Assembly: GCA_964408105.1 (NCBI GenBank)
Contig: CAYOYI010000003.1
Span: forward strand, 1-26,828
Direction of reading: 5' to 3'
Source: an uncultured Chitinophagaceae bacterium
GTDB taxonomy: Bacteria > Bacteroidota > Bacteroidia > Chitinophagales > CAIOSU01
DNA: 26,828 nt
Shown: in pieces, positions 10,632-19,685 of the stretch
Layout: each line of letters opens with the position of its first letter
How positions within the stretch are numbered: the first letter of the stretch is position 1
The notes under the pieces: model-generated
What the model was told of the DNA's origin: nothing
Databases searched by the model: none
Seen by the model: only the letters and a program-made list of their open reading frames with translations
Translations under genes and position numbers: made by a program

Positions 10632-11681
10632 ATGGTTACTCTTTTATTAATTCTTGCAGTTGTTCTTGTAGGGGTGATTATTTTCCAGATTGCCCGTGCA
10701 AGCGAGATGCTTTCCATGCTGAAGGGGCAAAAGGAAGGTGAAGTCGCACCGGATACCAGCCGCTCCCTTGCTTACTTCATGCTCGGTTTTTTGGTGATTG
10801 GAATGATCGGCACTTTTTGGTCGGTCGCGAAATATAAAGGATATTTTCTGCCCCCGGCTTCCAGCATACACGGAGTTGAACTGGATAATATGTTCAACAT
10901 CACATTGCTTTTCACCGGAATCGTATTCATCATCACGCAGATTCTTACGTTTTGGTTTGCATTCAGGTACAGCAGTGATAAGGGAAAGAAAGCATATTTC
11001 TATCCGCACAATAATAAACTCGAATTGGTTTGGACAGCCGTACCTGCCGTGGTAATGACAGTACTTGTGATCTTTGGTATTAAGGCATGGTTGAAAACCA
11101 CTGGTCCCGCTCCTCAAGAAGCCATGGAAGTTGAAGCGATTGCCGAGCAATTTCAATGGACAATCAGATATTCCGGAAGTGACGGAAAACTTGGAAAAAG
11201 GAATTTCGAGCTGATGTCAATGGATAATCCGCTTGGAATTGATTGGACCGATGAGAACAGTAAAGATGATTTTACAACAACTGAAATTCACCTCCCGGTA
11301 AATAAGCCGGTATTGTTCCGGTTATCATCGAAAGACGTATTACATAGTTTTTACCTCCCGCATTTCAGGGTGAAGATGGATTGTGTTCCGGGTATCCCGA
11401 CAAGGTTTTGGTTTACTCCGACACAAACTTCCGTTGAGAAACAAAACGAAGTAAAGGACTCGAATTTTAAATACGTGCTTGCCTGCGCAGAGTTGTGCGG
11501 TTCGGCTCATTGGAATATGCGCAGGGACATCACGGTAGAGACCGATGAAGAATTCAAATTATGGTTTGATCAACAACAGCCTCTTTACAATACGATGAAG
11601 GCTTCGCTCGAACAACCTGCAACAGACACTTCAAAAGTAAATTCAGTCAATGATGAGGAAAAACCCATTTCCTCACTTTAA
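10632..11681 (+). CDS. coxB: Cytochrome c oxidase subunit II (CuA; no fused cytochrome c)
   Basis: CuA ligands DVLHSF and CAELCGSAHWNM, QFQW loop and LELVWTAVPA helix. No CxxCH motif. Confidence 0.96.
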   Translation: MVTLLLILAVVLVGVIIFQIARASEMLSMLKGQKEGEVAPDTSRSLAYFMLGFLVIGMIGTFWSVAKYKGYFLPPASSIHGVELDNMFNITLLFTGIVFIITQILTFWFAFRYSSDKGKKAYFYPHNNKLELVWTAVPAVVMTVLVIFGIKAWLKTTGPAPQEAMEVEAIAEQFQWTIRYSGSDGKLGKRNFELMSMDNPLGIDWTDENSKDDFTTTEIHLPVNKPVLFRLSSKDVLHSFYLPHFRVKMDCVPGIPTRFWFTPTQTSVEKQNEVKDSNFKYVLACAELCGSAHWNMRRDITVETDEEFKLWFDQQQPLYNTMKASLEQPATDTSKVNSVNDEEKPISSL

Positions 11682-11693
11682 AAAAATCCAGTA

Positions 11694-13520
11694 ATGGCGC
11701 ACGAAAATCCTAAAGTAGCGGAAGAGGTTCATGCACACGCGCACGGCCACAATGGCCATGATGAGCATCATGAGCACGAGCATCACGACAATTTCATAAC
11801 CAGATACATCTTCAGCCAGGATCATAAGACCATTGCCAAGCAATTCCTGATCCTTGGAATTTTCTGGGCGGTGATTGGCGCATTGTTCTCTGTATTTTTC
11901 CGCTTGCAGCTTGCATTCCCCGACCAGTCATTCCCGATTATGGGACAAATATTAGGTAATTGGACTGAGGACGGAAAACTTCTTCCCAACTACTATTATG
12001 CTTTGGTGACGATGCACGGGACTATCCTGGTATTTTTCGTTTTGACAGCAGGCTTAAGCGGAACATTCGCGAATTTTCTTATTCCATTGCAAGTAGGAGC
12101 ACGTGATATGGCATCTCCATTTATGAATATGCTTTCTTTCTGGTTTTTCGCCTTATCAAGTGTGGTGATGATGGCTTCACTTTTTCTTCAAACCGGTCCT
12201 TTTTCCGGTGGATGGACAGCTTATCCGCCATTGAGCGCTCTGCCGCAAGCCAGCCCCGGGTCAGGATGGGGAATGACCCTTTGGTTAGTGAGTATGGCAC
12301 TGTTTATTATCTCTGTCGCGCTTGGAGGATTGAATTATGTTTCTACGGTCATCAACCTGCGCACCACAGGAATGACTTTTTTCAGAATGCCGCTTACGAT
12401 TTGGGCGCTGTTTTTTACAGCCATCGTAGGTCTGCTTTCATTCCCCGTGTTGTTTGCAGCAGCAGTACTTTTAATATTTGACCGTTCGCTTGGAACAAGT
12501 TTCTATCTCTCTGATATCTTTATTGGAGGAGAAGCGCTTAGTTATTCCGGTGGAAGCCCGATACTTTATCAGCATTTGTTTTGGTTCCTTGGTCATCCTG
12601 AGGTGTATATCATCATTTTGCCCGCAATGGGATTGGTCTCAGAAGTACTTTCCGTCAATGCTCGCAAGCCGATCTTTGGATACAGGGCGATGGTTTACTC
12701 CATTATGGCAATCGTAGTGTTGTCCTTCATCGTGTGGGCGCATCACATGTTTGTGTCAGGATTGAATCCCTTTGTTGCTTCCATATTTGTATTGTTTACA
12801 CTTCTTATTGCAGTTCCTTCTGCGGTTAAAGTATTCAACTGGATCACTACTTTATGGCGGGGCAATATCAGGCTCACTGTAGGGATGTGCTTTGCGATCG
12901 GCTTTGTTTCGCTTTTCATTTCGGGTGGATTGACCGGTATCTTTCTTGGCAATTCGGCAATTGATATTCAGTTGCATGATACCTATTTCGTTGTTGCACA
13001 CTTCCATATTGTGATGGGGGTTGCGGCCTTCTTCGGTATGTTCGCAGGAATCTATCATTGGTTCCCGAAGATGTTCGGAAGATATATGAATAACACGCTC
13101 GGCTATATTCACTTTATTGCGACTTTGGTCGGCAGCTATATGATTTTCTGGCCGATGCACTACATGGGGATGACTGGGGTGCCGAGAAGGTATTTTGCTT
13201 TTTCAAGCTTCGAGATGTTCAACACTTACGGTGACATGAATATTTTCATTACGGTGTTTGCCATCCTGACATTCATGGCGCAGTTGCTTTTTATTTTCAA
13301 TTTCTTCTACAGCATCTATAAAGGCAGGCAGGTTACGGAATTGAACCCATGGGATTCCACAACCCTGGAATGGACTACACCGATCAATCCGGGGCACGGC
13401 AATTGGCCGGGAAATATTCCTTCAGTTTATCGCTGGCCCTATGATTATAATAAAGACGGACAGGAATTTGTCCCTCAAACCGTGCCACTGAGACCGGGTG
13501 AAAAAGATGAAGGGCATTAA
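11694..13520 (+). CDS. coxA: Cytochrome c oxidase subunit I, type A1
   Basis: His ligands in TMHGT, GHPEVY (Glu-containing A1 motif with cross-link Tyr), WAHHMF and VAHFH. D-channel Asp in GARDMA and K-channel Lys in AVKVFNW. Confidence 0.98.
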   Translation: MAHENPKVAEEVHAHAHGHNGHDEHHEHEHHDNFITRYIFSQDHKTIAKQFLILGIFWAVIGALFSVFFRLQLAFPDQSFPIMGQILGNWTEDGKLLPNYYYALVTMHGTILVFFVLTAGLSGTFANFLIPLQVGARDMASPFMNMLSFWFFALSSVVMMASLFLQTGPFSGGWTAYPPLSALPQASPGSGWGMTLWLVSMALFIISVALGGLNYVSTVINLRTTGMTFFRMPLTIWALFFTAIVGLLSFPVLFAAAVLLIFDRSLGTSFYLSDIFIGGEALSYSGGSPILYQHLFWFLGHPEVYIIILPAMGLVSEVLSVNARKPIFGYRAMVYSIMAIVVLSFIVWAHHMFVSGLNPFVASIFVLFTLLIAVPSAVKVFNWITTLWRGNIRLTVGMCFAIGFVSLFISGGLTGIFLGNSAIDIQLHDTYFVVAHFHIVMGVAAFFGMFAGIYHWFPKMFGRYMNNTLGYIHFIATLVGSYMIFWPMHYMGMTGVPRRYFAFSSFEMFNTYGDMNIFITVFAILTFMAQLLFIFNFFYSIYKGRQVTELNPWDSTTLEWTTPINPGHGNWPGNIPSVYRWPYDYNKDGQEFVPQTVPLRPGEKDEGH

Positions 13521-13534
13521 AGTTTCCGGGTTGG

Positions 13535-14455
13535 ATGAATGAAATGAGAAATCATGAAGCGATCGAGGTTATTTCAGCTTACAGGCCTCAGACGTTAAGC
13601 CTTAAGCTAAGCGACTACGCCCTTCTGTTCAAGTTCCGGCTTTCCTTTACCGTAGTTTTTTCATCCGTTATTGCTTACTGCATTGCCGCTCATGAAACGC
13701 TGTTGTTCAGTAATGTGGTTTTTGTTTTTATCGGAGGTTTTCTGATCACTGCCGGAGCAAACGCTTTTAACCAGGTTTTAGAAAAAGATTATGACAGGCT
13801 GATGAGGCGCACGCAAAACAGGCCGCTTGCTGCGGGCAGAATGAATGCCCCGGAGGCCTTGTTGATTGCCGGGTTGAGTGGCATCACCGGAGTTATTGTT
13901 CTCTGGCTCTGTTTCAACATGCTCGCAGCAATCCTAGGAGCGATTTCGATGTTCACTTACGCCTTTGTTTACACACCGCTAAAAAGGTTATCACCACTTG
14001 CGGTTTTGGTGGGAGCCATTCCGGGAGCATTGCCTCCGCTTATTGGCTGGGTGTGCGCAACGGGTGTAGTAGGCTTTGAAGCGATGCTTCTTTTCAGCAT
14101 TCAGTTCCTTTGGCAGTTCCCGCATTTTTGGGCGATAGCATGGATCTCACATGATGATTATCAGCGGGCGGGTTTCAAACTACTGCCTTCAACTGGCGGT
14201 AAGGACCGCCAAACAGCTTTACTAAGCATATTATATATCGCCATACTGATTGGCGTTTCAGTGCTTCCGGTTGTCACGGGAATGACAGGCTATATTTCGG
14301 GTGCAGTAATCGTTGCCGCAGGAATTATTTTTCTGATGCAAAGTATTCGGCTTTACAAGAGTTGCGAAATTAAGGATGCAAAAGCGCTGATGTTCGGCTC
14401 GATTGTTTATTTGCCGGTTGTTTTAATAGCATTGTTAACGGGGGCAATTTCCTGA
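13535..14455 (+). CDS. cyoE: Protoheme IX farnesyltransferase (heme O synthase)
   Basis: NQVLEKDYDRLMRRTQNRPL, YTPLKR, GAIPGALPPLIGW and WQFPHFWAIAW. An alternative start exists at 13544. Confidence 0.95.
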   Translation: MNEMRNHEAIEVISAYRPQTLSLKLSDYALLFKFRLSFTVVFSSVIAYCIAAHETLLFSNVVFVFIGGFLITAGANAFNQVLEKDYDRLMRRTQNRPLAAGRMNAPEALLIAGLSGITGVIVLWLCFNMLAAILGAISMFTYAFVYTPLKRLSPLAVLVGAIPGALPPLIGWVCATGVVGFEAMLLFSIQFLWQFPHFWAIAWISHDDYQRAGFKLLPSTGGKDRQTALLSILYIAILIGVSVLPVVTGMTGYISGAVIVAAGIIFLMQSIRLYKSCEIKDAKALMFGSIVYLPVVLIALLTGAIS

Positions 14456-14456
14456 C

Positions 14457-15068
14457 ATGGATATAGCAATGAATGCCGGAGAGTTTATGAGCGAAAAACC
14501 TACACGGGTTCACCCGCAGCGTTTTGCGCTGTGGCTGGGCATTGCCTGCCTCATCATGACCTTTGCGGGATTGACCAGCGCATACATTGTTAGAAAGGGT
14601 GCGGGTAATTGGGTTGAATTCAGGTTGCCGTTTAACTTCATCATCAGTGCCGCTATCATGTTGTTGAGTAGCTTATCAATTCATTGGGCGAGCCTTTCTT
14701 TCAAACATGATAAGCTGAATAATTATCGCTGGGCTCTTGGAGTCACTTTTTTACTAAGCGTGGCATTCTTGTTCAGTCAATATTTGGGATGGAAAAAGCT
14801 TCAGGAGATCGGAATTTATCTTTCAGGAAATCCGTCAGGTTCATTTGTGTATGTGATCAGCTATCTGCATGTTGTGCACGTAGCCGTGGGAATGATTTTT
14901 ATCCTGATCGCCTTTGCCAAATCATTGGTTTTATTTAGTAATCCGGCAAATTTTCTCATTTACAGAACAGACAGCAATAAGAGTATCCGAATCGGGATGC
15001 TGGCTACATACTGGCACTTCGTGGATGTGCTGTGGCTATATTTGCTGGTCTTTTTTATGGTAAGCTGA
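14457..15068 (+). CDS. coxC: Cytochrome c oxidase subunit III, paralogue 1 (5-TM, CoxO-like)
   Basis: FAGLTSAY, FLFSQYLGW, YLHVVHV and YWHFVDVLW. The start could be 14457, 14469 or 14487. Confidence 0.88.
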   Translation: MDIAMNAGEFMSEKPTRVHPQRFALWLGIACLIMTFAGLTSAYIVRKGAGNWVEFRLPFNFIISAAIMLLSSLSIHWASLSFKHDKLNNYRWALGVTFLLSVAFLFSQYLGWKKLQEIGIYLSGNPSGSFVYVISYLHVVHVAVGMIFILIAFAKSLVLFSNPANFLIYRTDSNKSIRIGMLATYWHFVDVLWLYLLVFFMVS

Positions 15069-15087
15069 ATTTGAAAAAGAATTAAAC

Positions 15088-15780
15088 ATGAGTACAGAAG
15101 CCATCAAGCAGGAAAATCTTTGGGGAGGCGGAGTTTCGCCCTTCAAGGTGAGCTACGGCAAGATGATGATGTGGTATTTCCTGCTGTCTGACGCATTTTC
15201 GTTTGCGGCACTATTGATCACCTACGGAGCCATTCGCTTCAGCCATGTGGATTGGCCGGATCCGAATGAAGTTTTCTCTGCATTCCCATTCATGGGCCAC
15301 ACGTACCTGCCGCTGATGTTCGTGAGCTTCATGACCTTCACACTTATCATGAGCAGTGTTACCATGGTGCGTGCGGTACAGGAAGGAGCAAGAATGAACA
15401 GGAAAGGAGTGATCTTCTGGCTGGGATTAACAATACTTGGGGGACTAACGTTCTTAGGCAGTCAGGCCTGGGAGTGGAATCACCTGATTCACGGGGGAAT
15501 GACATTGACCACACCCTGGCAACAGCTGGATCATCACACCCACGAACCGGTTGGCCAGGCAGCTCCTTTGATTTTCGGGCACTTGTTTTTTACAATTACC
15601 GGGTTTCACGGATTTCACGTTTCAACGGGAGTTTTGATCAATATCATTGTGTTCATACAAGTGATTCAGGGTGTCTATGATAAGCGGGGACATTATGAGA
15701 TGATAGAGAAGATTGGCCTGTACTGGCACTTCGTTGATTTGGTTTGGGTGTTCGTGTTCCTGTGTTTTTACCTTTTGTAA
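15088..15780 (+). CDS. coxC: Cytochrome c oxidase subunit III, paralogue 2 (5-TM, CoxP-like)
   Basis: YGKMMMWYFLLSDAFSF, TFLGSQAWEW, FFTITGFHGFHV and LYWHFVDLVW. Confidence 0.9.
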   Translation: MSTEAIKQENLWGGGVSPFKVSYGKMMMWYFLLSDAFSFAALLITYGAIRFSHVDWPDPNEVFSAFPFMGHTYLPLMFVSFMTFTLIMSSVTMVRAVQEGARMNRKGVIFWLGLTILGGLTFLGSQAWEWNHLIHGGMTLTTPWQQLDHHTHEPVGQAAPLIFGHLFFTITGFHGFHVSTGVLINIIVFIQVIQGVYDKRGHYEMIEKIGLYWHFVDLVWVFVFLCFYLL

Positions 15781-15801
15781 ATCGAACTTAAAACTTATAG
15801 T

Positions 15802-16131
15802 ATGTCAGCAACAATGACCGAAGAAGAATATAAGCACCATGTGAGCAGCGTGTGGCGCGTTACGGTGATTTTGGCCGTAGTAACAATTGTTGAGGTGGTA
15901 GGAGCTTTGATGTATCCTGAAAGCATGCCCCGCATGGTATTGAACCTGTTCTTCATCATCATGAGCCTTATTAAGGCCTTCTATATCGTTGCGGTTTTCA
16001 TGCACATGAAATACGAAAAGCAGGCCTTGCAAATGACCGTTTTGCTTCCAACGCTCTTTTTGGTTTGGGCGATCATTGCATTCCTCTGGGAAGGCAGCGC
16101 ATGGCTCAACTTGCGCAGTATTTGGTTTTAA
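15802..16131 (+). CDS. Prokaryotic cytochrome c oxidase subunit IV family protein
   Basis: Three hydrophobic helices, VTIVEV and KAFYIVAVFMHMKYE signature. It follows the subunit III genes. Confidence 0.88.
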   Translation: MSATMTEEEYKHHVSSVWRVTVILAVVTIVEVVGALMYPESMPRMVLNLFFIIMSLIKAFYIVAVFMHMKYEKQALQMTVLLPTLFLVWAIIAFLWEGSAWLNLRSIWF

Positions 16132-16175: not shown

Positions 16176-16850
16176 ATGCCGAGATTGTCAAATACCAAGA
16201 TCATAGCGCTTTTTTTGGCTATTCTGCTTCCGGTCAGCTTCTTCATTTATTTCGAAATCAAAAAGCAAAAAACCGGGATCAGAGTTAAAGAATTACCAAA
16301 GCTGAGCCAAACAACGATCCCTTCTTTCAGTCTGATTTCTCATACCGGTGATTCCGTTACGGAAAAGAATGTGTCTGGAAAAATTATGGTTTCGGATTTC
16401 TTCTTCACACGTTGCCGCGGAATTTGCCCGGTGATGGGCCGGCAGATGAAGTCGCTGCAGGATTACATTGGAAAGCATCCGAACCTGAAGTCTGAATTCA
16501 TCCTGCTCTCTCACACCGTTGATCCTTATTATGACAGCCTGAATGTGCTGAGCGATTATGCGGCAGTGTATGGCGCAGATGGAGAACTGTGGAAGCTTGT
16601 GACCGGAGAAAAAGCACAGCTCTATGATTTGGCGAAAAATTTTTACAAGCTGCCGATGCTTGAAACTCCGGAAGATACTGTTAATCCTTATGCGCACAGT
16701 GAAAGGTTTACCTTGGTGGATAAGGAAGGCTTTGTCCGGGGATATTATGATGGAACAGATTCGGCCAGCGTCAAAGAACTGATGAAGGATATAGTGATGC
16801 TCGATCTGGCTTATCAGATCGAAGAAACTAAACTTGATAAGGCTCAGTAG
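16176..16850 (+). CDS. SCO1/SenC family copper chaperone
   Basis: N-terminal TM anchor, FFTRCRGICP (CxxxC), SHTVDP..D and the conserved His in HSERFTLVD. Confidence 0.93.
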   Translation: MPRLSNTKIIALFLAILLPVSFFIYFEIKKQKTGIRVKELPKLSQTTIPSFSLISHTGDSVTEKNVSGKIMVSDFFFTRCRGICPVMGRQMKSLQDYIGKHPNLKSEFILLSHTVDPYYDSLNVLSDYAAVYGADGELWKLVTGEKAQLYDLAKNFYKLPMLETPEDTVNPYAHSERFTLVDKEGFVRGYYDGTDSASVKELMKDIVMLDLAYQIEETKLDKAQ

Positions 16851-16854
16851 AGCA

Positions 16855-17370
16855 ATGTCCGATTCCGCTTATAAAAAAATTATCATCGCCATATCGCTGC
16901 TCATACCGGCAGTAGTCACTGCTCTGGTGTTTGTGAAAATACCTGTTGAAGGGATCAACCTACTTTTCTTTCCAAAATTTCATGCTACCCTCAACAGCAT
17001 TACGACCATATTGCTGACTTCTGGATTTTTTTTCATTAAGCAGAAGAACATCAAAATGCACAAGGCCTGCATGTTTTCCGCCATCGGATTTTCGGTGGTG
17101 TTCCTTATGTCGTATGTGTTTTACCATTCGATTTCCGAACCGACAAGATTTGGCGGTGAGGGAATGATCCGCTCGGTGTATTTCTTCATCCTTATCACGC
17201 ACATCGTGCTGGCAGCAGCAGTGCTGCCTTTTGTGCTATTTACCGTCTATCGTGCGCTCACCAAACAATTTGCTCAACACAAAAAAATTGCCCGTTGGAC
17301 TTTACCGGTGTGGCTTTACGTGGCGGTTACGGGTGTAGTGGTTTACCTTATGATGGCGCCCTATTATTAG
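16855..17370 (+). CDS. DUF420 membrane protein (CtaM/YozB-like oxidase assembly factor)
   Basis: Four TM helices with FHATLNS, HKACM, SYVFYH, ILITHIVLA and HKKIARWTLPVWLYVAVTGVVVYLM. ATG 16855 is preferred over TTG 16834, which overlaps sco. Confidence 0.88.
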   Translation: MSDSAYKKIIIAISLLIPAVVTALVFVKIPVEGINLLFFPKFHATLNSITTILLTSGFFFIKQKNIKMHKACMFSAIGFSVVFLMSYVFYHSISEPTRFGGEGMIRSVYFFILITHIVLAAAVLPFVLFTVYRALTKQFAQHKKIARWTLPVWLYVAVTGVVVYLMMAPYY

Positions 17371-17404: not shown

Positions 17405-17920
17405 TCACAATTTTTTCTCCAACACAACAAATTCCAGTTGTTTTTTTGGAATTCCTAAACGGGGATTGCTCATCGGAAAAGGGTTACGTTGATTGGTTGT
17501 TTGATAACCGTATCGTTCATACCAGGCGATTAGCTCATCGCGTCCGGAAATAACGTTCATATAGATTGAAGTGCACTTCAGTTTTCTTGCTTCAGCCTCA
17601 ATTGCTTTCAGGAAGATTTTTCCAATACCTTTATTTTGCAGCTTAGGCGCCACCGTTAACATTCCCATGTATAGCTTGCTGCCGTGCTGCTCTATGTGAA
17701 CACATCCGATTATTTTTTTATCATCAACGCACTTCAAAACCTGAGAATGAGGTTTGTTCAGAATTTCGGTGAGCGCTTCCGGGTCAGTACGGATGCCTTC
17801 AATCAAATCGGCTTCGGTGGTCCAACCCTCCTTAGCGCTTTCTCCGCGATACGCGGAGTTGATGAGCAGATTCAATTGCTCAACATCATCTTCTGTTGCT
17901 TTTGAAATGATCGTGTTCAA
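17405..17920 (-). CDS. GNAT family N-acetyltransferase
   Basis: Acetyl-CoA motif A VAPKLQNKGIGK, N-terminal YRGE...GWTTEADL and WYERYGY. TTG start. Confidence 0.9.
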   Translation of the reverse strand: MNTIISKATEDDVEQLNLLINSAYRGESAKEGWTTEADLIEGIRTDPEALTEILNKPHSQVLKCVDDKKIIGCVHIEQHGSKLYMGMLTVAPKLQNKGIGKIFLKAIEAEARKLKCTSIYMNVISGRDELIAWYERYGYQTTNQRNPFPMSNPRLGIPKKQLEFVVLEKKL

Positions 17921-17958
17921 TCGGGATAGAATTGGGCTTAATTTTACTGCACATTTTT

Positions 17959-18210
17959 ATGAGAACAAAATTGTGGCTCGTACTTCTGGTTATCGTGATC
18001 GTTTTCATGATATTTCCTGCATTGGCACAATGCCCCATGTGCAAGGCATCAGTGGAATCATCAATGAAGGAGGGCAGCACGGCTGCAGTTGGCATCAATC
18101 GCGGGATTCTTTATTTGCTCTCCATGCCGTATCTGCTTTTCAGCGTCATTTTCCTGCTTTGGTATAGGCATTACAGGAGACACTCAAATATCCCCCAACA
18201 TTGGCCTTAG
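17959..18210 (+). CDS. Small exported, membrane-anchored protein with N-terminal QCPMC motif (function unknown)
   Basis: 83 aa from ATG 17959. Signal peptide ends ALA|Q, followed by CPMC, a short polar segment, GINRGILYLLSMPY, a TM helix and a basic stop-transfer sequence (YRHYRR). Confidence 0.8.
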   Translation: MRTKLWLVLLVIVIVFMIFPALAQCPMCKASVESSMKEGSTAAVGINRGILYLLSMPYLLFSVIFLLWYRHYRRHSNIPQHWP

Positions 18211-18882
18211 CACAATATCTTCAACAACCGATCTTTCCGAGAGGGAATAAATACTGAAGATAGTGTCTGCAATGTCCCTTGCATCCATGAATCTTTTTTC
18301 CGGAAGGTTTGAGCCTTCCCATGATGGGGTGTAGGTTGCTCCGGGAAATAATGAGGTAACGCGGATGTTGTGGGGCTTCAATTCTTCACGTAATGCGCGG
18401 GAGAAGCCGAGCAAGGCATGTTTGGAGATAGAGTAAGAGCCTCCATTCGGATAAGCCTTAAGCGCTGCTACAGAGCACATATTAAAAACATGTCCCGACT
18501 TGTTCGGAAGCATTAATTCGAGTACCTCACGTGTCAGGTAGTATGCGCTGTAAAGGTTCACTTTCATCAGGTCTTCCATCAACCCGTCTTCCTCTTCGAT
18601 AACAAGACCGGGTAAAAAGATTCCCGCGTTATTCACCAGCACATCAAGTTTCTTCCAGGCCTTTTTGATCTTTCTTGCAAACGCTTTCAACTGTTTCTTT
18701 TCTGAAACATCACATTGAACGGCAAGTACTTTGCAGTCGAATTTGGATTTTAGCTGGTGGGCAAGAGCGTCCAGATCACCCTTACTTCTGGCGCAGACCG
18801 CTAACTGTGCGCCTTCTTCGGCAAATTTTTCTGCAATAGCACGGCCTAATCCTTTGGTTGCCCCTGTAACGATAACATTCAT
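18184..18882 (-). CDS. Short-chain dehydrogenase/reductase (classical SDR)
   Basis: TGATKGLG, NNAG, catalytic Ser (CSVA) and YSISK (YxxxK). ATG 18882 is preferred because the longer ORF overlaps mlaE. Confidence 0.93.
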   Translation of the reverse strand: MNVIVTGATKGLGRAIAEKFAEEGAQLAVCARSKGDLDALAHQLKSKFDCKVLAVQCDVSEKKQLKAFARKIKKAWKKLDVLVNNAGIFLPGLVIEEEDGLMEDLMKVNLYSAYYLTREVLELMLPNKSGHVFNMCSVAALKAYPNGGSYSISKHALLGFSRALREELKPHNIRVTSLFPGATYTPSWEGSNLPEKRFMDARDIADTIFSIYSLSERSVVEDIVLRPMLGDI

Positions 18883-18925
18883 GATCTTAGTTAATGTGCC
18901 GGTCAAAATAACTAAAAAAATCAGG

Positions 18926-18933
18926 TATTTTTG
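18926..18933 (+). promoter_or_regulatory. Bacteroidota -7 promoter box for mlaE-mlaF-lgt-P450
   Basis: Exact TAnnTTTG (TATTTTTG) 14 nt upstream of the mlaE ATG, in the divergent intergenic region. Confidence 0.55.
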
Positions 18934-18947
18934 ATTGCGCGTAAAGG

Positions 18948-19685
18948 ATGACATTTTTCTATCATTTTGGGCGATACCTGATGCTGATTGGCCGGTGCTT
19001 TTCGAGGCCCGAGAAATTCGTAATGTACTGGAAGGAACTGGTAAGGCAGATGACCCAGATCGGAGTTGGGTCGCTTGGTATCATATCTATCATGTCTCTT
19101 TTTATCGGGGCGGTAACAGCCGTTCAGTTCTCGTATCAATTAAGTGGCACCTTTGTTCCAATGTGGTGGGTGGGTTTCATTGTGAGAGACTCTATGATAC
19201 TTGAGCTTGCACCAACTTTTTCATGTCTGTTGCTTGCCGGAAAAGTTGGTTCTAACCTTGCGTCTGAGTTGGGTTCCATGCGCAACACCGAGCAGATAGA
19301 TGCGCTTGAGATCATGGGAGTAAACACTTCAGGTTATTTGGTCGGGCCTAAAATTTTAGCTTCCGTTATCGTTTTCCCTTTGCTTATTATTTTCTCAGTG
19401 TTCTTCGGAATCTTCGGAGGTATGTTTGCCGGCAGCACTATTGGCTTGTATTCCGTTGCTGAATATGTCAGGGGGTTACAGGATGATCTTAATCCTTTCG
19501 ATGTTCAGGTGATGTTTATAAAAACCGTGACTTTCGGATTCATCATCACATCCATTTCATGCTACCAGGGATTTCATGTCACAGGTGGCGCGCTTGAAAT
19601 AGGAAAGGCAAGCACAAGAGCCGTGGTTTTCAGCAGCATCGTATTGATCATTTCAAACTTCCTTATTGCGGCATTGGTGCTATGA
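18948..19685 (+). CDS. mlaE: MlaE-family ABC transporter permease
   Basis: GAVTAVQF, ELAPTF..LLLAGKVGS, ELGSMRNTEQIDALEIMG and GGALEIGKASTRAVV. Confidence 0.93.
   Translation: MTFFYHFGRYLMLIGRCFSRPEKFVMYWKELVRQMTQIGVGSLGIISIMSLFIGAVTAVQFSYQLSGTFVPMWWVGFIVRDSMILELAPTFSCLLLAGKVGSNLASELGSMRNTEQIDALEIMGVNTSGYLVGPKILASVIVFPLLIIFSVFFGIFGGMFAGSTIGLYSVAEYVRGLQDDLNPFDVQVMFIKTVTFGFIITSISCYQGFHVTGGALEIGKASTRAVVFSSIVLIISNFLIAALVL

What the first reader, a model, noticed from the sequence alone, without database searches (positions are those of the whole stretch)
17959..18210. QCPMC mini-protein: candidate unrecognised copper-handling factor of the oxidase cluster
Seen: an 83-aa ORF with a type I signal ending A-L-A|Q. 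The mature chain would start Q24-C25-P26-M27-C28 and be anchored by one C-terminal TM helix with a basic inner flank, putting the Cys/Met head in the periplasm. It is on the same strand as sco and DUF420 and ~0.6 kb downstream of them. Established: Cys/Met clusters are typical Cu(I) ligands, CuA and CuB are loaded from the periplasmic side, and Bacteroidota SPI substrates often begin with Gln that is cyclised to pyroglutamate. Inference: a minimal Cu(I) carrier or thiol-redox partner acting with SCO and CtaM, possibly in place of CtaG/Cox11 or PCuAC, which are absent from this window. From memory, similar AQCxMC proteins occur near Bacteroidota cox genes with uninformative annotations; this was not verified here.
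Basis: partly seen in the sequence, partly recalled or inferred. Interest (0 to 1): 0.7.

Follow-up and report, generated by a model that had tools for sequence, protein, structure and literature searches.

The report
Conserved Cys-Met-Cys mini-protein of oxidase operons
This 83-residue ORF is a real, strongly conserved, exported membrane mini-protein with no curated family that almost always sits right after the oxidase-assembly gene ctaM (DUF420) in Bacteroidota, and inside the oxidase operon in some Acidobacteriota, so it is probably a missing accessory factor for building the copper-containing respiratory oxidase.

Summary
It has a signal peptide ending ALA|Q, a mature start QCPMC, one C-terminal TM helix and a basic tail.

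It is a real gene. Synonymous sites against relatives are saturated (pS 0.8-1.0) while pN is 0.12-0.27. The family holds at least 7,900 90%-identity clusters and about 1,950 50%-identity clusters. All named members are called "hypothetical" or "membrane protein", and none matches Pfam, NCBIfam or the PDB.

Q24, C25, C28 and N47 are invariant in 150 diverse members. M27, E33, G49, I50, P57 and Y58 are at least 90% conserved.

In 72 of 77 evaluable species genomes the gene directly follows DUF420/ctaM on the same strand, often overlapping its stop codon. In some genomes the DUF420-mini pair sits alone, away from the cox genes. In Blastocatellia (Acidobacteriota) a homologue follows coxIV in the same operon as DUF420.

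In this window a GNAT gene on the opposite strand has been inserted between DUF420 and the mini gene.

The best reading is a periplasm-facing Cys-x-Met-Cys accessory factor that works with CtaM in copper delivery or thiol chemistry for aa3 oxidase biogenesis. Copper binding was not tested, and a role as a small structural subunit is not excluded.

The parts
17959..18210 (+). Mini-protein gene (83 codons plus stop); member of an uncurated 'AQCxMC' family
   Evidence: ORF. Homologues. Purifying selection. No Pfam or NCBIfam match.
17959..18027 (+). Sec/SPase I signal peptide (residues 1-23, ending A-L-A)
   Evidence: 150 members: position -1 is A144/S5/T1; -3 is A/V/L/S/T/I/G; -2 is variable; the h-region is hydrophobic but not conserved in sequence. 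Cleavage itself is inferred.
18028..18099 (+). Periplasmic head Q24-N47, carrying Q24-C25-P26-M27-C28 (18028-18042), then a short amphipathic helix and a turn
   Evidence: Q24, C25, C28 and N47 are invariant; M27 is 142/150; E33 is 141/150. AF2 places C25/C28 at the N-cap of helix 26-37 (mean pLDDT 85.8, but about 69 over residues 21-30).
18103..18165 (+). Conserved transmembrane helix (G49-Y69)
   Evidence: Hydropathy. G49, I50, Y52, L53, P57, Y58 and W68 are strongly conserved, with small residues at positions 62 and 65 in most members. AF2 helix 42-76.
18166..18207 (+). Basic cytoplasmic tail (RHYRRH...)
   Evidence: K/R-rich at positions 70-76 across the family. By the positive-inside rule the head is periplasmic (inference).
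16834..17370 (+). DUF420/CtaM gene, the conserved genomic partner (likely ATG start at 16855)
   Evidence: Pfam PF04238, E = 1.5e-47. Directly upstream of the mini gene in 72 of 77 species loci.
16176..16850 (+). SCO1/SenC copper chaperone gene with an intact CxxxC (TRCRGICP)
   Evidence: Pfam PF02630, E = 1e-23. Sequence.
10632..16131 (+). coxB, coxA, ctaB, two cox3 genes and coxIV, the structural and heme-O genes of the same operon
   Evidence: Pfam results.
17405..17920 (-). GNAT acetyltransferase gene inserted between DUF420 and the mini gene (specific to this genome)
   Evidence: Pfam. No GNAT tblastn hit in any of the 86 loci searched. The closest syntenic relative L001 has a 226-nt spacer instead.
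17939..17946 (+). TAATTTTA, a near match to the Bacteroidota -7 promoter element TAnnTTTG, 20 nt before the ATG; a possible own promoter
   Evidence: This is inference only, with one mismatch to the consensus. The sigma-70 scan was uninformative.
18184..18954 (-). Convergent SDR gene whose 3' end overlaps the mini gene by 27 nt; not part of the system
   Evidence: The same SDR-mlaE-mlaF neighbours occur in L001, L010, L064 and, for SDR only, L062.

Best explanation
SHOWN. The ORF encodes a real and ancient mini-protein. It has a Sec signal peptide with an AxA|Q cleavage site, a head of about 24 residues that begins (p)Gln-Cys-x-Met-Cys, and one strongly conserved TM helix with a basic C-terminal tail. 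Genetically it forms a two-gene module with ctaM (DUF420). The pair usually makes up the last two genes of the ctaB-cox3-coxIV-(sco)-ctaM operon, and the mini start often overlaps the ctaM stop.

INFERRED MECHANISM. After export and cleavage, the protein is a type-I single-pass inner-membrane protein. Its two Cys, plus Met, sit at the N-cap of a short helix held at the periplasmic face of the membrane. Its conserved TM helix (G49, I50, Y52, P57, Y58, small-xx-small) docks onto CtaM. CtaM has recently been proposed to export or reduce copper for oxidase assembly. The Cys-x-Met-Cys head would take Cu(I) as it emerges and hand it on, either to CoxA (CuB) or to SCO/CoxB (CuA). In this reading it acts as a minimal, membrane-tethered metallochaperone. 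It would work like Cox11 or PCuAC but is not related to either.

IN THIS WINDOW. The module has been split by insertion of a GNAT gene, so the mini gene probably uses its own promoter.
For: Reality and conservation:
- Homologues (1,946 clusters at 50% identity with E <= 1e-3; at least 7,925 clusters at 90% identity).
- pN is 0.12-0.27 against saturated pS.
- Q24, C25, C28 and N47 are invariant; M27 is 95% conserved.
- The same residues are invariant across Bacteroidota and Acidobacteriota.

Topology:
- A canonical SPase I site, an unconserved h-region and a highly conserved second TM helix.
- AF2 mean pLDDT 85.8, with the CxxC at a helix N-cap. Thioredoxin-type and Atx1/CopZ-type CxxC sites have the same geometry (established knowledge).

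Linkage to DUF420:
- 72 of 77 evaluable species loci have DUF420 directly upstream. In 69 of them the distance from the DUF420 stop to the mature Gln codon is 65-210 nt, and about 16 show start/stop overlap.
- Gene calls show 4-8 nt overlaps in L003, L004 and L087.
- In the reverse direction, 51 of 78 loci selected by DUF420 carry the mini gene immediately downstream.
- In Thermoflexibacter ruber and in a Saprospiraceae genome, the DUF420-mini pair sits alone, far from the cox structural genes.
- In Blastocatellia and Pyrinomonadaceae the mini gene lies in the cox operon together with DUF420.

Functional context:
- CtaM/DUF420 is required for aa3 and caa3 activity but not for heme a insertion (PMC9145763).
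- It is proposed to export and/or reduce copper for oxidase assembly (PMC13344008).
- No Cox11, PCuAC or CtaA gene lies in the window.
Against: - No biochemical or genetic data exist for any member of the family, and copper binding is untested.
- Met27 is replaced by L, I, V, T, A or Q in about 5% of members.
- A Cys pair can equally serve thiol-disulfide chemistry, or form a structural disulfide.
- In Acidobacteriota the gene follows coxIV, a structural gene, rather than DUF420.
- 5 of 77 species loci, one further homologue locus (Bernardetia, L089) and this window have the gene uncoupled from DUF420.
- 12 Bacteroidota-like DUF420 loci have no mini gene downstream.
- Whether these genomes really lack Cox11 and PCuAC was not tested.
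Confidence: 0.45

Rival explanations
1. Thiol-disulfide relay rather than a metal carrier. The membrane-tethered CxxC would cycle between dithiol and disulfide to keep the CuA cysteines of CoxB and/or the CxxxC of SCO reduced, as TlpA or Coa6 do. Alternatively it would reduce Cu(II) to Cu(I) at the CtaM exit.
For: - The CxxC sits at a helix N-cap, which is the classic redox-active geometry.
- The two Cys are invariant while Met is dispensable in about 5% of members.
- The CtaM literature raises a need for local Cu(II) reduction (PMC13344008).
- TlpA-type reductants are known CuA assembly factors (PMC9145763).
Against: - There is no thioredoxin fold and no Pfam match.
- No obvious source of electrons lies in the operon.
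- Met between the two Cys is 95% conserved, which is more typical of Cu(I) ligation.
- Lineages whose SCO-slot protein has no Cys still keep the mini gene.
Confidence: 0.2
2. A small structural subunit of the aa3 oxidase, or of the ACIII-aa3 supercomplex. It would be a single-TM helix packed against CoxA or Cox3, with the Cys pair forming a stabilising disulfide or a minor metal site.
For: - In Acidobacteriota the gene lies 9-11 nt after coxIV.
- The TM helix is far more conserved than a passive anchor needs to be.
- Small single-TM subunits are common in heme-copper oxidases (established knowledge).
Against: - In Bacteroidota the gene follows the assembly genes (sco, ctaM), not the structural genes.
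- When the operon is split, the gene stays with DUF420 rather than with the cox genes.
- No PDB chain matches the family profile, at E up to 10.
- Invariant exposed Cys pairs are unusual for bacterial subunit IV-type helices.
Confidence: 0.2
3. A membrane peptide with a function unrelated to the oxidase (for example envelope stress or regulation) whose position after ctaM is a historical accident. At the extreme, a non-functional ORF.
For: - Orphan locations exist: L008, L010, L033, L041, L071, Bernardetia L089 and this window.
- No expression data could be obtained.
Against: - Linkage to cox/DUF420 is found in two phyla with different gene orders.
- The sequence is under strong purifying selection.
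- The family comprises thousands of conserved members.
Confidence: 0.07

Closest known systems
Cox11 / CtaG (PF04442), the CuB insertion factor
   Same: A single N-terminal membrane anchor holds Cys thiolates close to the positive-side membrane surface. It is encoded in cox operons. The proposed role, Cu(I) delivery to subunit I, is the same.
   Different: Cox11 has a soluble beta-rich domain of about 120 residues with a CFCF motif and works as a dimer. The mini-protein has a helical head of about 24 residues with CxMC, the opposite anchor orientation (C-terminal TM after signal-peptide cleavage), and no sequence or profile similarity.
PCuAC (PF04314) and Bacillus CtaK (YtkA domain), periplasmic or extracytoplasmic CuA chaperones
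   Same: They are extracytoplasmic, membrane-associated Cu(I) carriers that act with SCO. They are lineage-specific, non-homologous solutions to the same task (PMC9145763).
   Different: Those proteins use His and Met ligands in beta-sandwich folds. This one uses Cys and Met in a mini-helix. No homology was found.
Atx1/CopZ HMA domains (MxCxxC) and thioredoxin-type CxxC proteins (TlpA, ResA)
   Same: The CxxC lies at the N-terminus of an alpha-helix (AF2 model).
   Different: The mini-protein has neither a beta-alpha-beta-beta-alpha-beta fold nor a thioredoxin fold. It has no Pfam match, and it is membrane-tethered and less than 60 residues when mature.
CtaM / DUF420 (PF04238)
   Same: It is in the same operon, usually with translationally coupled genes, and has the same phyletic context (A-type oxidases).
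   Different: CtaM is a separate polytopic protein and is the proposed partner, not a homologue. Bacillus and Staphylococcus CtaM have no described mini-protein partner.
Small accessory peptides of other terminal oxidases (CcoS/FixS, CcoQ, CydX)
   Same: They are single-TM proteins of fewer than 100 residues, encoded next to oxidase genes and long overlooked in annotation.
   Different: None of them carries an exported N-terminal Cys-x-Met-Cys head, and none matches the family.

Membership tests
AQCxMC mini-protein family (uncurated; defined here) | SPase I signal peptide ending in a small residue at -1, followed by an invariant Gln-Cys-x-(Met)-Cys | tested here: met
   The window protein has ALA|QCPMC. 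In 150 family members Q, C and C are 150/150 and M is 142/150.
AQCxMC mini-protein family (uncurated; defined here) | Invariant Asn-x-Gly-Ile entering a conserved TM helix with Pro-Tyr, followed by a basic tail | tested here: met
   The window has N47-R-G49-I50, P57-Y58, W68 and RHYRRH.
AQCxMC mini-protein family (uncurated; defined here) | Gene directly downstream of DUF420/ctaM | tested here: not met
   In the window a GNAT gene on the minus strand (17405-17920) separates the two genes by 588 nt. The adjacency holds in 72 of 77 relatives.
Bacteroidota Q-rule SPase I substrates | AxA|Q cleavage site exposing an N-terminal Gln | tested here: met
   Sequence pattern; the rule is described in PMC5837995 and PMC10653852.
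Bacteroidota Q-rule SPase I substrates | Actual cleavage, and cyclisation to pyroglutamate by glutaminyl cyclase | not testable with these tools
   This needs N-terminal mass spectrometry. Q24 is also invariant in the Acidobacteriota homologues.
Cox11/CtaG (PF04442) | Match to the Cox11 domain, with its CFCF copper motif | tested here: not met
   No Pfam hit for the window protein or for any of the 150 members.
PCuAC (PF04314) | Match to the PCuAC domain, with its H/M copper motif | tested here: not met
   No Pfam hit. The head contains no His.
SCO1/SenC and thioredoxin-fold reductases (TlpA, ResA) | Thioredoxin fold carrying CxxxC+H or CxxC | tested here: not met
   No Pfam hit. The AF2 model is all-helical.
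HMA domain (PF00403; CopZ/Atx1) | Beta-alpha-beta-beta-alpha-beta fold with MxCxxC | tested here: not met
   No Pfam hit. Only the helix N-cap position of the CxxC is shared.
c-type heme attachment site (CXXCH or CXXCK) | Invariant axial ligand (His, or Lys as in NrfA) directly after the second Cys | tested here: not met
   Position 29 reads K85, R47, T7, A4, Q3 and others. It is not a conserved ligand.
Bacterial lipoproteins | Lipobox L-[AS]-[GA]-C, with Cys as residue +1 | tested here: not met
   The residue before the Cys is an invariant Gln.
Oxidase subunit IV (COX4_pro, PF03626) or another solved oxidase subunit | Sequence match to a known subunit family or to a PDB chain | tested here: not met
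   No Pfam match. PDB profile search found nothing meaningful. Foldseek found nothing with E < 8.
Copper-binding protein (functional class) | Measurable Cu(I) affinity of the Cys-x-Met-Cys head | not testable with these tools
   This needs peptide or protein biochemistry.

The most novel reading that the evidence does not exclude
The mini-protein is the missing periplasmic partner of CtaM/DUF420. Together they would form a route of copper insertion into A-type heme-copper oxidases that does not depend on Cox11 or PCuAC. The route would be used throughout the aerobic Bacteroidota (Chitinophagia, Saprospiria, Sphingobacteriia, Cytophagia, Flavobacteriia) and in the Blastocatellia. An N-terminal (pyro)Glu-Cys-x-Met-Cys held at the membrane surface would be the smallest dedicated Cu(I) chaperone site known. 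The invariance of Gln outside the Q-rule phylum would mean that the N-terminal residue itself belongs to the site.
Probability: 0.3. Interest if true: 0.8.

Novelty: new variant of a known kind. Interest (0 to 1): 0.62.

Why it matters
How CuB and CuA are loaded in organisms that lack Cox11 and PCuAC is an open question. So is the function of CtaM/DUF420 (PMC9145763, PMC13344008).

This family gives that question a concrete handle. It is tiny and easy to mutate. It has four invariant residues. It is translationally coupled to ctaM in hundreds of species, including Flavobacteriia and Cytophagia, the classes that include genetically tractable species.

The case also shows that a family with thousands of members, in one of the most studied bioenergetic operons, still has no Pfam or NCBIfam model and is annotated only as "hypothetical".

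Tried and rejected
Searches and computations that gave nothing useful:
- PDB sequence-profile search: only noise, E >= 2.
- Foldseek of the AF2 model against the PDB: no match with E < 8.
- Pfam and NCBIfam on the protein, and Pfam on 150 family members: nothing consistent.
The CtaM contact could therefore not be modelled.
- Expression: only four metagenomic DNA runs hold the region and no RNA runs do.
- Sigma-70 promoter and terminator scan: no better than shuffled sequence.
- Literature: no paper contains QCPMC or QCAMC as a motif. Sun et al. 2018 (F. johnsoniae supercomplex) is not held, so unassigned helices in that map could not be checked.
- The first listing of cluster members gave no taxon names.

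Ideas considered and dropped:
- A CXXCK heme site: position 29 is not conserved.
- A lipoprotein: Gln precedes the Cys.
- A zinc ribbon: each chain has only two Cys. The one multi-repeat hit, P0055 (1,052 aa, with KCPxCxAEVES repeats), is spurious.
- P0032, which looked like a CoxA-mini fusion: it is a chimeric 1.1-kb metagenome contig joined at a shared GILYL stretch.
Full report
OBSERVATION

The ATG is at 17959, the stop codon at 18208-18210, and the product has 83 residues:
MRTKLWLVLLVIVIVFMIFPALA|QCPMCKASVESSMKEGSTAAVGINRGILYLLSMPYLLFSVIFLLWYRHYRRHSNIPQHWP.

Hydropathy shows two hydrophobic segments, at residues 5-19 and about 49-69. The first ends in A-L-A followed by Gln. The second is followed by RHYRRH.

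The window carries, in order: recQ, actABCDEF (alternative complex III), coxB, coxA, ctaB, two cox3 genes, coxIV, sco and DUF420/ctaM. Then come a GNAT gene on the minus strand, the mini ORF, and an SDR gene on the minus strand. After that are mlaE, mlaF, lgt, a P450 gene, rmuC and a DAHP synthase-chorismate mutase gene.

However, that gap is occupied by the opposite-strand GNAT gene (17405-17920). The ORF's last 27 nt also overlap the 3' end of the convergent SDR gene. No Cox11, PCuAC, CtaA or Surf1 gene is in the window.

IS IT A REAL GENE?

Yes, for three reasons.

First, homologues are abundant.
- A first search found 32 homologues of 70-106 residues.
- An exhaustive profile search of 1.84 billion cluster representatives found 1,946 clusters at 50% identity with E <= 1e-3, of which 810 had E <= 1e-10.

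Second, the sequence is under strong purifying selection. Over the 51-codon core, the window gene differs from eleven relatives at 78-100% of synonymous sites. It differs at only 12-27% of non-synonymous sites.

Third, no curated family covers it, so it is not a mis-called piece of a known protein. Pfam and NCBIfam give nothing for the window protein. No Pfam family is hit consistently by the 150 members scanned. The sources name members only "hypothetical protein" or "membrane protein".

ANATOMY

In an alignment of the window protein with 149 diverse representatives:
- Invariant: Q24, C25, C28, N47.
- At least 90% conserved: A23, M27 (142/150), E33, G49, I50, P57, Y58.
- Position 29 is K or R in 132 of 150.

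The site before Gln is a textbook SPase I site. Position -1 is Ala 144, Ser 5, Thr 1. Position -3 is A/V/L/S/T/I/G. Position -2 can be almost anything. The preceding hydrophobic core is not conserved in sequence.

The second hydrophobic helix, in contrast, is among the best-conserved parts of the protein (GILYLLxxPYL...W). Most members have small residues at positions 62 and 65. This contrast argues that the first segment is a cleaved signal peptide and that the second is a specific helix-helix interaction surface.

AlphaFold2 with this alignment gives mean pLDDT 85.8. That figure is about 69 over residues 21-30, which hold the Cys pair. It predicts helix 2-17 (signal peptide), a loop, helix 26-37 with C25/C28 at its N-cap, a turn, and helix 42-76.

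The basic tail places the C-terminus in the cytoplasm, so the Cys-x-Met-Cys head is periplasmic and close to the membrane. The length of the head varies between lineages. There are 18 residues between C28 and N47 here. There are about 14-16 in Flavobacteriia-type members and 13 in Acidobacteriota. The constant elements are therefore the AQCxMC tip and the N-x-G entry into the TM helix.

GENOMIC CONTEXT ELSEWHERE

A scan of one genome per GTDB species found relatives in 385 species, and 80 loci were fetched. They come from:
- Chitinophagales
- Saprospiraceae and Lewinellaceae
- Sphingobacteriales (for example Solitalea koreensis)
- Cytophagales (for example Thermoflexibacter ruber)

tblastn with the window's proteins gives the following for those 80 loci.
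- 3 loci are at contig edges and cannot be evaluated.
- 72 of the remaining 77 have DUF420 directly upstream on the same strand.
- In 69 of these, the distance from the DUF420 stop to the codon for mature Gln is only 65-210 nt. That is just enough for the signal peptide, so the start codon lies at or over the DUF420 stop. About 16 loci show overlaps of 1-16 nt.
- Independent gene calls confirm overlaps in L003, L004 and Dyadobacter L087.
- In 3 loci one extra same-strand gene, an FkbM-type methyltransferase, sits between DUF420 and the mini gene.
- 5 loci are "orphans". These include the two closest relatives of the window protein, L008 and L010. L010 and a third orphan, L033, keep the SDR-mlaE neighbours, and L008 keeps SDR at its contig end, but their upstream genes are unrelated to respiration.

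The genes downstream of the mini gene differ from genome to genome: SDR, rhodanese, a 2OG oxygenase, a glycoside hydrolase, a histidine kinase. The conserved junction is therefore the one with DUF420.

In Thermoflexibacter ruber and in a Saprospiraceae genome, the DUF420-mini pair sits alone. It lies between mreBC or batD on one side and an ion-channel or UDG gene on the other, with no cox gene within 6 kb. The unit that travels together is DUF420 plus the mini gene, not the cox structural genes plus the mini gene.

REVERSE TEST

Eighty metagenomic loci were selected by DUF420 alone and searched with the family HMM.
- 51 of 78 evaluable loci have a mini gene immediately after DUF420.
- Of the 27 without one, 15 have GC >= 0.52 and look like other phyla.
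- The other 12 have GC <= 0.46 and look like Bacteroidota. They have an ECF sigma factor gene or a minus-strand gene downstream instead.

Many of the positive loci carry a shorter variant, QCAMC[KR]AV[LV]E..., followed by G[IV]N[ND]GI.YLM..PY. Exact look-ups place this variant in Flavobacteriaceae:
- Winogradskyella psychrotolerans (WP_215927836.1)
- Polaribacter sp.
- Aequorivita aquimaris (WP_062619819.1)
- Aequorivita iocasae

A SECOND PHYLUM

One high-GC locus (L165) carries a divergent member right after coxIV. Searching with it returned 631 clusters whose named members are Pyrinomonadaceae and Blastocatellia, in the Acidobacteriota.

Two long contigs show the same gene order:
ctaA-ctaB-coxB-coxA-cox3-cox3-(cox3)-coxIV-MINI-(72-aa zinc-finger protein in L171)-(123/133-aa unannotated protein)-DUF420.

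Across both phyla A23, Q24, C25, M27, C28, N47, G49, L53 and P57 are invariant.

Two consequences follow.
- The association with A-type oxidase operons that contain DUF420 has held across a deep phylogenetic split despite gene-order change.
- The invariant Gln cannot be explained only by the Bacteroidetes Q-rule, which is described as specific to that phylum (PMC5837995). The Gln may be part of the functional site.

WHAT IT MOST LIKELY DOES

CtaM (DUF420) is required for active aa3 and caa3 in Staphylococcus and Bacillus but not for insertion of heme a (PMC4958251, PMC9145763). A 2026 study proposes that it exports and/or reduces copper for oxidase assembly, possibly handing it to SCO (PMC13344008).

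The mini-protein is translationally coupled to CtaM. It exposes two invariant Cys and a Met at a helix N-cap on the periplasmic membrane surface, and it has a TM helix conserved like an interaction surface. The best-supported reading is therefore an accessory factor that docks on CtaM. It would either carry Cu(I) from CtaM to CoxA (CuB) or to SCO/CoxB (CuA), or perform the associated thiol/Cu(II) redox step.

I give the copper-carrier version about 0.45, the purely thiol-redox version about 0.2, a structural small-subunit role about 0.2, and anything unrelated to the oxidase under 0.1.

Shown: the gene is real, it is conserved, its predicted topology is as described, and its synteny holds in both directions and in two phyla.

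Inferred: cleavage and pyroglutamate formation, contact with CtaM, copper binding, and replacement of Cox11 or PCuAC.

Many Saprospiraceae and Lewinellaceae loci have, in the SCO slot, a 214-aa protein that aligns co-linearly with SCO but lacks the CxxxC. The Acidobacteriota operons show no SCO at all.

COMPARISON WITH KNOWN FAMILIES

Functionally it resembles Cox11 (membrane-tethered Cys ligands for CuB), PCuAC and CtaK (lineage-specific extracytoplasmic copper chaperones), and, in local geometry, CopZ/Atx1 or thioredoxin-type CxxC sites.

It is a member of none of these. It has no profile match, no beta-rich or thioredoxin fold, and only about 24 extramembrane residues.

Three other readings were ruled out.
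- It is not a lipoprotein, because Gln precedes the Cys.
- It is not a CXXC[HK] heme site, because position 29 varies.
- It is not a zinc ribbon, because each chain has only two Cys.

It is best described as a new type of oxidase accessory protein, a new variant of a known kind of system.

THIS WINDOW SPECIFICALLY

Relative to the syntenic Chitinophagales genome L001, this genome has acquired a GNAT gene on the opposite strand between DUF420 and the mini gene. L001 has the order DUF420 - 226-nt spacer - mini - SDR - mlaE - mlaF - lgt - P450.

The mini gene is intact and conserved, at 67% identity to the L001 protein. It probably has its own promoter. A TAATTTTA element, one mismatch from the Bacteroidota -7 consensus, lies 20 nt upstream of the ATG. 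This is inference only. Expression could not be checked because no RNA runs hold the region.

VERDICT

The finding is a genuine, widespread, uncharacterised family that makes the CtaM question experimentally approachable. Interest is about 0.6.

Noticed in passing
window 17405-17920 (-): A GNAT acetyltransferase gene sits between DUF420 and the mini gene. No GNAT hit was found in any of the 86 loci searched by tblastn, and the syntenic relative L001 has only a 226-nt spacer there. It looks like a lineage-specific insertion that split the ctaM-mini module.
   Followed up: partly
window 18184-18210: The 3' ends of the mini gene (+) and of the convergent SDR gene (-) overlap by 27 nt.
   Followed up: no
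window 16834-17370; alignments A4 and A5: DUF420 has four invariant His residues (H69, H91, H116 and H142 in the 171-aa numbering that starts at the ATG at 16855). By my hand-drawn five-TM topology they lie pairwise near the two membrane faces. This is compatible with heme or metal sites in a transmembrane relay. The listed ORF starts at a TTG that overlaps sco, and the ATG at 16855 is the more likely start.
   Followed up: partly
L045 4724-5368 (Saprospiraceae); similar gap in other Saprospiraceae and Lewinellaceae loci: The SCO slot between coxIV and DUF420 is occupied by a 214-aa membrane-anchored protein. It aligns co-linearly with SCO (23% identity) but lacks the CxxxC copper ligands and has no Pfam hit.
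   Followed up: partly
L087 5807-6459 (Dyadobacter sp. NIV53): The SCO slot holds two short ORFs (115 and 99 aa) with no Pfam hit. The first contains a C-DDS-C motif, so this may be a split or frameshifted sco gene.
   Followed up: no
L050 5256-6002 and 6241-6636 (the methyltransferase-sized gap also in L053, L069): An FkbM-type methyltransferase gene is inserted between DUF420 and the mini gene on the same strand. In L050 a DUF983 gene (a Cys-rich membrane protein) follows the mini gene directly.
   Followed up: partly
L171 7270-7985 and L172 7551-7952 (Blastocatellia / Pyrinomonadaceae): Between the mini gene and a short (143-aa) DUF420, L171 encodes a 72-aa treble-clef zinc-finger-like protein and a 123-aa protein with no Pfam hit. 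L172 shows a 133-aa unannotated protein. Both may be further uncharacterised components of the operon.
   Followed up: no
L090 (ENA contig k119_1782903), protein P0032: A 1.1-kb metagenome contig joins a caa3-type coxB and the N-terminus of coxA to the C-terminal half of a mini gene plus the SDR 3' end. The join lies at a shared GILYL stretch. This is almost certainly an assembly chimera, not a natural fusion.
   Followed up: yes
protein P0055 (1,052 aa; representative library): An unrelated large protein with about ten repeats of KCPxCxAEVESTxRDGRIDNRRxCGH scored 98 bits against the family profile. It is a spurious match to zinc-ribbon-like repeats, and it shows that the CPxCxAxVES tip resembles a zinc knuckle.
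   Followed up: partly
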